Source of the DNA: a virus
Taxonomy: Duplodnaviria > Heunggongvirae > Uroviricota > Caudoviricetes
IMG/VR virus record: IMGVR_UViG_2541047442_000023
Direction: 5' to 3' (one strand)
Length of the DNA: 4,586 nt
This document shows, one piece after another, positions 3,001 through 4,586 of this stretch. A program made the position numbers. Numbering within the stretch: the stretch's first letter is position 1; the number at the start of each line of letters is the position of its first letter.

Positions 3001-4586
3001 AATGTCATACAGCTTGTTCGTGTATGAGGAGTTCAGCTCTTTCATGATCGGATACAGGTGTTTGCTGAGGTCCTGGGCTTTTTCCATCCAGAGTTGCATG
3101 TAGCAGAGGAGGATGATTTCCTCGTCTGTGAATTGTTGCTGTGGTTCTGCTTGTGCCGACTGCATGTTGCGAAGTTTCTTTTCGCACTCGATGAAGTATC
3201 TGCGTATCTGTCGGCCTTTTTCGTTACGCTCTACCATCGCCGTTTCTTTGGCTGTATCGAGGGTAAGGTGGTAGTCTTTTTTCCCTCGCCCATAACCTAT
3301 TTCCCGTTTCTGGGAAATAGCTATATAGTCCTGATTTTCAACGAATCCGTACTCTTCAATACGTTCTGTAATCCACGATGCAAAGCGTTTACCTACTCCA
3401 AGAAAAGTATGTAAATCACGGGCATTAACGAGAAGAGTGGTTTCGTTGGCGATAGTGCCGTTGAATACGGGGATGCGTTGACTGGTCATGATGACCTCCT
3501 TATTTGTTTAGTTTATAACCGCCAGTTAGTAGCTGGCGGTCGGGTGTCAACTGAGCCAAATAAGAAGCTCTGGGCATATTCCCCTTGCGGGTGTTGTATT
3601 ACGCCTCTCCACCCGACCTTTGTACGGATGTAACTATGCCAAATTGCAGGCATAAAAAAGCCGCAAAGCTATCGGGTGCGGAGACCGCTTATTTGTTCAG
3701 TGCGGTCAGTATGCGATAGCTCTGGAGGATTTGTCAATCAGCGGAATATTGATGAACGGGTAACGGTAAATGCCTCATCCAGAAAATTAACGCAAATTCG
3801 CATCGCAAACTTGCGTTAATTATCTGAAATATCAAGTTAAATCCCCTTAAATGTTTGGGGCACTATTGGGGCAAAATGTGGTTGTTTGGGGCACTATTGG
3901 GGCAAAATGTGGTTGTTTGGGGCATATTTGGGGCAAAAAAGAACGTATAAAGAACGGTGTAAAATTGATTTCTTCATGGTCAAAATGAGGTGTAACAGAT
4001 TGAAAAATATATGCTCTTGGACGATCTTCGGTAATTCTGTGTTTTTAATGCTTCATGGTTTCAATATGTCCGTACATGGAATAATAAAGCACCAGAACTT
4101 TAGCCATTTCTAACCACTCCTCGTGTTATCTCTATTCCGTAGCGATTCGCTACCACTTATTTAAAGATAAGACGTCCTTTTCAGAGTGCAAATTTCACAA
4201 CCACTTATTTGATTTATAACAACTTTCACAAGCACGCAATTTTGTCGCAAAATGACACATTTTTATCTCATCGCGTTTTTTTAATCATAAGAGCGGCTTA
4301 TGGATAATTATTGGAGATGATATCTATTCTCGCTAAGAAGCTGTTGCAGGATATTACCAAACGCGGGTAGAAACACGTCAGTTCACTAAGCTTAGTCCCA
4401 CGTAGCGAAAATATGGCAGCCGCCATACGCCGCGTTAATTCTAGCAATATGATGTCTATACCCAGACGGAGGTCAGTAATGGCAAACCATCGAGGCGGTT
4501 CCGGCAATTTTGCAGAAGACCGCGAAAGAGCATCAGAAGCAGGTAAAAAAGGTGGCAAGAGCAGTCACGGCAAAAGCGACAACTAG

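What the first reader, a model, noticed from the sequence alone, without database searches (positions are those of the whole stretch)
3941..4107. Element integrated inside the 5' end of wrbA leaves an expressible 20-codon wrbA stub; att-proximal end lacks an integrase
The minus-strand ORF at 4107 encodes the first 18 residues of WrbA and then diverges (KH-stop), so a mobile element has split wrbA while leaving its promoter and RBS intact. The wrbA promoter would therefore transcribe into the prophage end. The genes nearest this junction are an antirepressor-like operon reading away from the att site, not an integrase, so this is either the int-distal end or a non-canonical organisation.
Basis: partly seen in the sequence, partly recalled or inferred. 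Interest (0 to 1): 0.6.

Follow-up and report, generated by a model that had tools for sequence, protein, structure and literature searches.

The report
Known Stx-type prophage junction in wrbA
This is the ordinary, long-known right-hand junction (attR) of a 933W/Sp5-type Shiga-toxin-family lambdoid prophage inserted in the E. coli wrbA gene; the missing integrase simply sits at the other end of the prophage.

Summary
The minus-strand ORF 4045..4107 encodes [20 protein letters not shown], and its first 18 residues equal K-12 WrbA. A four-way attB/attP/attL/attR alignment places the crossover in the 7-bp core GTTTCAA (window 4058-4064), inside the published 933W site CATCGTTTCAATATGTC. Left of the core, window 3500-4064 is 100% identical to phage 933W. 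Right of it, the DNA is 100% identical to O157:H7 Sakai. Of 5,426 complete E. coli genomes, 214 carry the same junction. The others match only from window 4054 rightwards, under an intact wrbA. A published "wrbA right junction" PCR primer lies in the window's ant gene. This is the int-distal end. In Sakai, int/xis abut the other junction, and in circular phage genomes int begins about 22 bp beyond attP. The read-in idea needs trimming. A hairpin at 3779-3828, similar in sequence and architecture to lambda sib/tI, lies 216 nt downstream of the stub. A second terminator-like hairpin and a structured leader (Rfam sRNA-Xcc1) also precede ant. The window is the end of a draft contig, so int, stx and the wrbA 3' part cannot be checked in the source. 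Verdict: already known, low interest.

The parts
4045..4107 (-). 20-codon wrbA stub ORF ([20 protein letters not shown]). Codons 1-16 and the first two bases of codon 17 are bacterial or core DNA; the rest is phage DNA.
4058..4064 (.). attR common core GTTTCAA, the crossover region. It lies inside the imperfect 17-bp identity CATnGTTTCAAnATGTC (4054-4070).
   Evidence: Four-way attB/attP/attL/attR alignment. Att annotations in AP000422.1 and AP005153.1. Published site CATCGTTTCAATATGTC.
4065..4478 (-). Bacterial DNA: wrbA codons 1-15, the RBS, and the wrbA-ymdF intergenic region, which presumably holds the wrbA promoter (not mapped here).
   Evidence: 100% identical to Sakai and 98% to K-12; the first 129 nt upstream of the ATG are identical to K-12.
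3852..3944 (+). 31-nt tandem repeat, 2.8 copies, carrying six direct TTGGGGCA motifs. These are candidate arm-type Int-binding sites of the int-distal att arm. The window has one unit more than Sakai Sp5 (933W 'gg' arrangement).
   Evidence: (6 found, 0.17 expected)
3713..4057 (.). Conserved int-distal att arm. It is shared at 83-100% identity by wrbA-integrating Stx phages, including some that lack the ant operon.
3779..3828 (-). 22-bp hairpin whose 3' outer arm is the U-tract UUUUCUG. It is similar to lambda sib/tI and is the predicted terminator for wrbA read-in.
   Evidence: I1; dG -27.9, z -7.0
3708..3737 (-). Sigma-70 promoter-like site TTGACA-18-CATACT facing the ant operon.
3653..3705 (-). 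Second hairpin followed by CUUUUUUA, terminator- or attenuator-like, in the ant leader.
3530..3618 (-). Rfam RF02221 sRNA-Xcc1-type structured RNA, directly upstream of ant.
   Evidence: 69.1 bits; gathering score 53
2860..3489 (-). ant: AntA/AntB-type antirepressor with a P22_AR_C domain (equivalent to ECs1251 of Sp5).
2591..2812 (-). TraR/DksA-type zinc-finger protein gene.
4479..4586 (+). ymdF, the 35-aa O157-type allele.

Best explanation
The feature is attR (P-O-B' in lambda terms) of a 933W/VT2-Sakai(Sp5)-type lambdoid prophage integrated in wrbA. A tyrosine integrase with an N-terminal arm-binding domain recombined the phage attP core GTTTCAA with the identical 7 bp in wrbA codons 15-17. 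This left the wrbA promoter, RBS and first 16-17 codons joined to the int-distal phage arm, where the frame closes after KH. The integrase and excisionase genes lie about 60 kb away at attL, next to the 3' part of wrbA. Shown here: the crossover position, the identity of both flanks, the arrangement in relatives, and how common the junction is. Inferred: the six TTGGGGCA motifs are arm-type Int sites; the stub is transcribed and translated when the wrbA promoter is active; and that transcript mostly ends at the sib/tI-like hairpin at 3779-3828, before it reaches ant.
For:: attB, attP, attL and attR align as reciprocal recombinants around GTTTCAA; window 2320-4586 is 98.4-99.6% identical to the Sp5 right end, and AP000422.1 annotates wrbA as 'divided by the insertion of prophage' with the att site at the matching position; window 3500-4064 is 100% identical to 933W (CP111102.1) and to Stx2 phage I; 214 of 5,426 complete genomes hold the junction, and the rest break at window 4054 under an intact wrbA; in relatives, int (PF12167 arm-binding domain plus PF00589) and xis lie at attL, or just across attP; the site CATCGTTTCAATATGTC is cited as the known 933W attB; a published wrbA right-junction primer matches window 3278-3300 exactly. 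TTGGGGCA clusters on both att arms; the hairpin resembles lambda sib/tI.
Against: The window is the first 4,586 nt of a draft contig. The int end, the wrbA 3' part and any stx genes of the source genome were therefore not seen, and the prophage could be truncated. Window 1-2319 does not match Sp5. It matches the nin region of another prophage at 99.2%, so the left part is either a real recombinant or an assembly chimera. No transcription, termination or Int-binding data were available.
Confidence: 0.95

Rival explanations
1. The prophage at wrbA in this genome is a truncated or integrase-less remnant, or a non-canonical element, so the lack of int near the junction reflects real loss rather than the int-distal end.
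For: The contig ends inside the prophage, so the int end was not seen. Window 1-2319 differs from Sp5. The literature reports wrbA occupied by non-Stx prophages in some strains (PMC8309913).
Against: The att arm is 100% identical to functional 933W. In every related record examined, int lies across attP or at attL. Genes facing away from attR are what the int-distal end is expected to show.
Confidence: 0.08
2. wrbA-promoter transcription reads through the att arm into the ant operon. This would link stationary-phase (RpoS) signals to antirepressor expression and prophage induction.
For: The wrbA promoter region and RBS are intact and point the same way as ant. The distance is only about 560 nt. 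The first hairpin has an imperfect U-tract.
Against: Two terminator-like hairpins lie in between: 3779-3828 (dG -27.9) and 3653-3705 followed by U6. ant has its own promoter-like site. Its Shine-Dalgarno sequence is predicted to pair within a structured leader. The O104:H4-type wrbA phages have the same arm but no ant operon.
Confidence: 0.07
3. The junction is an assembly artefact of the draft genome.
For: The window is a contig end. Its left 2.3 kb may be joined through a 289-nt repeat shared with another prophage.
Against: The same junction occurs in 214 complete genomes, and one of them is 100% identical over the 311-nt junction query. The possible chimera point (2320-2608) is 1.4 kb away from the junction.
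Confidence: 0.01

Closest known systems
attR of Stx2 prophage 933W (EDL933) / VT2-Sakai = Sp5 (Sakai) in wrbA
   Same: Same attB in wrbA codons 15-17 and same core GTTTCAA. The att arm is 100% identical to 933W. ant and the TraR-like gene are at least 99.6% identical to Sp5, and the host flank is 100% identical to Sakai.
   Different: Window 583-2319 carries a different accessory block (DUF4752 / Ead-Ea22 / 63 aa / 185 aa) that is 98-99% identical to the nin region of another O157 lambdoid prophage. The hok/sok module is only 92% identical to that of Sp5. Whether stx is present is unknown.
Phage lambda attR (P-O-B') with the sib/tI retroregulator in the b-region arm
   Same: int-distal arm with repeated arm-type motifs. 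A hairpin beyond att, downstream of int in the circular form, has the U-tract forming the outer 3' arm. It shares CAGAnnATTAnCGCAAG...TTGCGnTAATTTTnTG with lambda, with an A-U to G-C compensatory pair.
   Different: Different core, different attB (inside a gene rather than gal-bio intergenic DNA), different arm motif (TTGGGGCA), and a greater distance from the core (230 nt against about 140 nt). RNase III processing and termination are untested here.
O104:H4-type Stx2 phages (phiON-2011, P13374 group), phi191, TL-2011c, Ss-VASD at wrbA
   Same: The att arm is about 83% identical over window 3713-4064, including the hairpin and the TTGGGGC motifs, and the core is the same.
   Different: In phiON-2011 there is no ant operon next to the arm; the large tail ORF ends about 195 bp from it.

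Membership tests
933W/Sp5-type prophage integrated at wrbA (attR) | Crossover in the core GTTTCAA within wrbA codons 15-17; attR is the phage arm joined to the wrbA 5' side | tested here: met
   Four-way alignment. Att annotations in AP000422.1 and AP005153.1. Published site.
933W/Sp5-type prophage integrated at wrbA (attR) | Phage-side att arm homologous to 933W/Sp5 | tested here: met
   Window 3500-4064 is 100% identical to CP111102.1 (933W) and AP004402.1. Window 2320-4586 is 98.4-99.6% identical to Sakai.
933W/Sp5-type prophage integrated at wrbA (attR) | Tyrosine integrase and excisionase at the opposite junction (attL), next to the wrbA 3' part | not testable with these tools
   The source contig ends at window position 1. 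The feature is met in the relatives Sakai, AP005153 and phi191. Pfam finds PF12167 plus PF00589, and the DUF1233 excisionase family.
Stx-converting phage | stxAB genes in the late region | not testable with these tools
   The window covers only the last ~4 kb of the prophage. The literature reports non-Stx prophages at wrbA as well.
Lambda-type sib/tI retroregulator | Hairpin beyond attP, downstream of int in the circular form, with the terminator U-tract forming the outer stem when read through | tested here: met
   same dot-bracket architecture; position relative to int and attP
Lambda-type sib/tI retroregulator | Sequence similarity to lambda sib | tested here: met
   Alignment A3: both outer halves of the stem are conserved, with one compensatory pair. 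Among Stx phages there is one compensatory change and one uncompensated change.
Lambda-type sib/tI retroregulator | Termination of non-antiterminated transcripts and RNase III cleavage of read-through transcripts | not testable with these tools
   Needs 3'-end mapping and rnc mutants.
Rfam RF02221 sRNA-Xcc1 | Covariance-model score above the gathering threshold | tested here: met
   69.1 bits against 53, full-length match over model positions 1-87.
hok/sok type I toxin-antitoxin | Hok/Gef ORF with an overlapping mok reading frame and sok RNA | tested here: met
   PF01848, E = 3e-23. RF01794 sok, 114.9 bits.

The most novel reading that the evidence does not exclude
The RpoS-dependent wrbA promoter, kept intact by integration, partly reads through the sib/tI-like hairpin into the ant operon. 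Host stationary-phase or stress signals would then tune antirepressor levels and spontaneous induction (and Stx output) of wrbA-integrated prophages. Integration would at the same time move the sib-like element from int to the wrbA stub transcript.
Probability: 0.06. Interest if true: 0.55.

Novelty: already known. Interest (0 to 1): 0.1.

Why it matters
It matters little as a discovery. wrbA is the textbook integration site of Stx2 phages 933W and Sp5, and occupancy of this site is typed routinely by PCR across this junction. The result is still useful for annotation. It identifies the contig end as a 933W-type prophage right arm in an O157-like chromosome. It fixes the crossover to 7 bp. It explains the 'missing' integrase. 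It also shows that read-in from wrbA should meet a lambda-sib-like terminator before it reaches the antirepressor.

Tried and rejected
I looked for the source genome. An exact-protein look-up showed that the window is the terminal 4,586 nt of draft contig AVSF01000034.1, so the other junction could not be reached. I did not run a database-wide search with Int to look for it, because the places returned would not be limited to that assembly. A literature search for the assembly accession found only an unrelated paper. Searches for a mapped wrbA promoter and for sib or retroregulation in Stx phages gave nothing usable. The built-in terminator scan found nothing on the minus strand between the stub and ant. 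A custom scan with a looser hairpin model found two candidates. I rejected three ideas: a non-canonical integrase-less element, an IS or transposon insertion (the att alignment is a clean reciprocal site-specific product), and an assembly artefact at the junction (214 complete genomes share it). The plus-strand ORFs that cross the junction (3886..4113 and 3851..3988) were not pursued; they lie over the repeat array and the att arm and have no support.

Full report
**Observation**

The minus-strand ORF at 4045..4107 is real. It encodes [20 protein letters not shown]. K-12 WrbA, translated from NC_000913.3, begins [22 protein letters not shown]. At the DNA level, window 4058-4107 matches K-12 at 50 of 50 bases. 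The 129 nt upstream of the ATG, which include the GAGGAG ribosome-binding site, are also identical to K-12. The whole stretch 4058-4586 is 100% identical to O157:H7 Sakai.

**What it is**

- Searches against complete E. coli genomes and against phage records place window 2320-4586 at the right end of prophage Sp5 / VT2-Sakai.
- GenBank AP000422.1 annotates wrbA there as "divided by the insertion of prophage" and marks the attachment site.
- I aligned the window with K-12 attB, the attP of a circular Stx phage genome (AP005153.1), and Sakai attL and attR. They form the classical reciprocal pattern:

| Site | Sequence around the core |
|---|---|
| attB | ...GCCATC GTTTCAA TATGTCC... |
| attP | ...TTCATG GTTTCAA CATGTCT... 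|
| attR (window) | ...TTCATG GTTTCAA TATGTCC... |
| attL | ...GCCATC GTTTCAA CATGTCT... |

- The crossover therefore lies in the 7-bp core GTTTCAA (window 4058-4064). This core sits inside the 17-bp imperfect identity that a preprint cites as the known 933W site in wrbA, CATCGTTTCAATATGTC (10.1101/2022.08.08.503262).
- The third base of codon 17, codon 18 (ATG), KH and the stop are phage DNA.
- Window 3500-4064 is 100% identical to phage 933W (CP111102.1) and to Stx2 converting phage I.

**How common it is**

A 311-nt query centred on the junction is fully covered in 214 of 5,426 complete E. coli genomes. Nearly all the others match only from window 4054 rightwards, under an annotated intact wrbA. 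A study of 346 O157 strains found wrbA occupied in 61.6% (PMC8309913). Its "wrbA right junction" primer in ECs1251 matches window 3278-3300 exactly. The finding is therefore a well-known, routinely typed junction.

**The missing integrase**

- This is the int-distal end. In Sakai, the integrase (ECs_1160) and excisionase (ECs_1161) lie at the other junction, directly next to the 3' part of wrbA.
- In circular phage genomes the int gene starts about 22 bp beyond the attP core, on the far side from the arm seen in the window.
- These integrases carry an arm-binding domain (PF12167) and a tyrosine-recombinase domain (PF00589). The neighbouring gene belongs to the DUF1233 excisionase family.
- In lambda terms the window holds attR = P-O-B'. 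Genes that read away from att are expected at this end.
- This could not be checked in the source genome. The window is exactly the first 4,586 nt of draft contig AVSF01000034.1 (GCA_000462725.2), so window position 1 is a contig end.

**Anatomy between the stub and ant (minus strand, 5' to 3')**

1. The stub ORF, 4107-4045.
2. The core, 4064-4058.
3. A 31-nt tandem repeat of 2.8 copies at 3944-3852, carrying six direct TTGGGGCA motifs where 0.17 are expected by chance. The same motif occurs twice on the int-proximal arm, so these are probably arm-type Int sites (inference). Sakai has one repeat unit fewer. The window has the 933W "gg" arrangement.
4. A 22-bp hairpin at 3828-3779 with dG -27.9 kcal/mol and z -7.0. 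Its 3' outer arm is the U-tract UUUUCUG.
5. A promoter-like TTGACA-18-CATACT at 3737..3708.
6. A second hairpin followed by CUUUUUUA, 3705-3653.
7. An Rfam sRNA-Xcc1 element at 3618-3530, scoring 69.1 bits against a gathering score of 53.
8. The ant start codon at 3489. Its Shine-Dalgarno sequence is predicted to pair with 3557-3570 in the leader.

**The hairpin at 3779-3828**

It has the same dot-bracket architecture as lambda sib/tI (NC_001416 about 27536-27585). It also aligns with lambda sib/tI: CAGAnnATTAnCGCAAG ... TTGCGnTAATTTTnTG, with an A-U to G-C compensatory pair. In the circular phage it lies downstream of int, beyond attP, as sib does in lambda. In the prophage it lies 216 nt downstream of the wrbA stub.

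I expect most such transcripts to end at this tI-like terminator, well before ant. This is a prediction and was not measured.

**Surroundings**

- The genes to the left are ant (AntA plus P22_AR_C domains), a TraR/DksA zinc-finger protein, a DUF4752 protein, an Ead/Ea22 protein, two unassigned ORFs, and a hok/sok module.
- Window 1-2608 is 99.2% identical to a nin-region block of a different lambdoid prophage (P ... DUF4752 - Ead - 63 aa - 185 aa - hok - DUF968 - RusA - Q). Window 2320-4586 is of Sp5 type. The two share 289 nt.
- This may be a true recombinant or a draft-assembly chimera, and the tools cannot tell which. It does not affect the junction, which is 1.4 kb away.

**Outside the window**

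At Sakai attL, the int stop codon overlaps an ATG that opens a 192-codon hybrid ORF, MINHILRHV-ETMARAV..., running into the rest of wrbA. The hybrid lacks WrbA residues 1-15. From knowledge of flavodoxin-like proteins, those residues include the FMN phosphate-binding loop, so the hybrid is unlikely to be active.

**Verdict**

The phenomenon is already known and common. The only mildly open points are whether the stub or read-in transcription has any consequence, and the uncharacterised sib-like and sRNA-Xcc1-like elements in the arm. Interest is 0.1.

Noticed in passing
window 3779-3828 (minus strand): A 22-bp hairpin with an embedded U-tract. It is similar in sequence and architecture to lambda sib/tI. 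It lies beyond att, downstream of int in the circular phage, and is conserved in other wrbA-integrating Stx phages with one compensatory and one uncompensated change. I found no open-access mention of a sib-like element in Stx phages.
   Followed up: partly
window 3530-3618 (minus strand), with 3493-3506 and 3557-3570: A full-length Rfam sRNA-Xcc1 (RF02221) match directly upstream of the AntA-type antirepressor gene. The predicted fold pairs the ant Shine-Dalgarno sequence with the leader. An APSE-phage paper (PMC7313666) reports the same family upstream of an ORF6N-domain gene. This suggests the 'sRNA' may be a cis-acting leader of antirepressor-like genes.
   Followed up: partly
window 3852-3944: A 31-nt tandem repeat carrying TTGGGGCA pairs varies in copy number between phages: 2.8 units here and in 933W, one unit fewer in Sp5 and in O104:H4-type phages. 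The same motif occurs twice on the int-proximal arm (L005 7586-7604).
   Followed up: partly
window 1-2608 against 2320-4586: The window is the end of draft contig AVSF01000034.1. Its left 2.6 kb is 99.2% identical to a nin-region block of another lambdoid prophage (L014, L015), and it overlaps the Sp5-type part by 289 nt. This may be a recombinant or an assembly chimera. No complete E. coli genome or phage record covers 80% or more of the window.
   Followed up: partly
window 216-540 (minus strand): A hok/sok type I toxin-antitoxin module: a Mok/Hok ORF at 216-428 and a sok RNA match at 366-540. It is only 92% identical to hokW/sokW of Sp5.
   Followed up: no
window 126-207 (minus strand): A sub-threshold match to the isrK Hfq-binding RNA (27 bits against a gathering score of 50), overlapping a terminator-like GC hairpin followed by a T-run.
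   Followed up: no
window 4479-4586: ymdF is a 35-aa allele with a 66-nt in-frame deletion of one KGG repeat relative to the 57-aa K-12 protein. It is identical to Sakai. Older annotations call a 57-aa ORF from an upstream ATG at 4413.
   Followed up: yes
L004 3100-3260 (Sakai attL; outside the window): The int stop codon (TGA) overlaps an ATG that opens a hybrid 192-codon ORF, MINHILRHV fused to WrbA residues 16-198. The 3' part of wrbA could therefore be translated together with int.
   Followed up: partly
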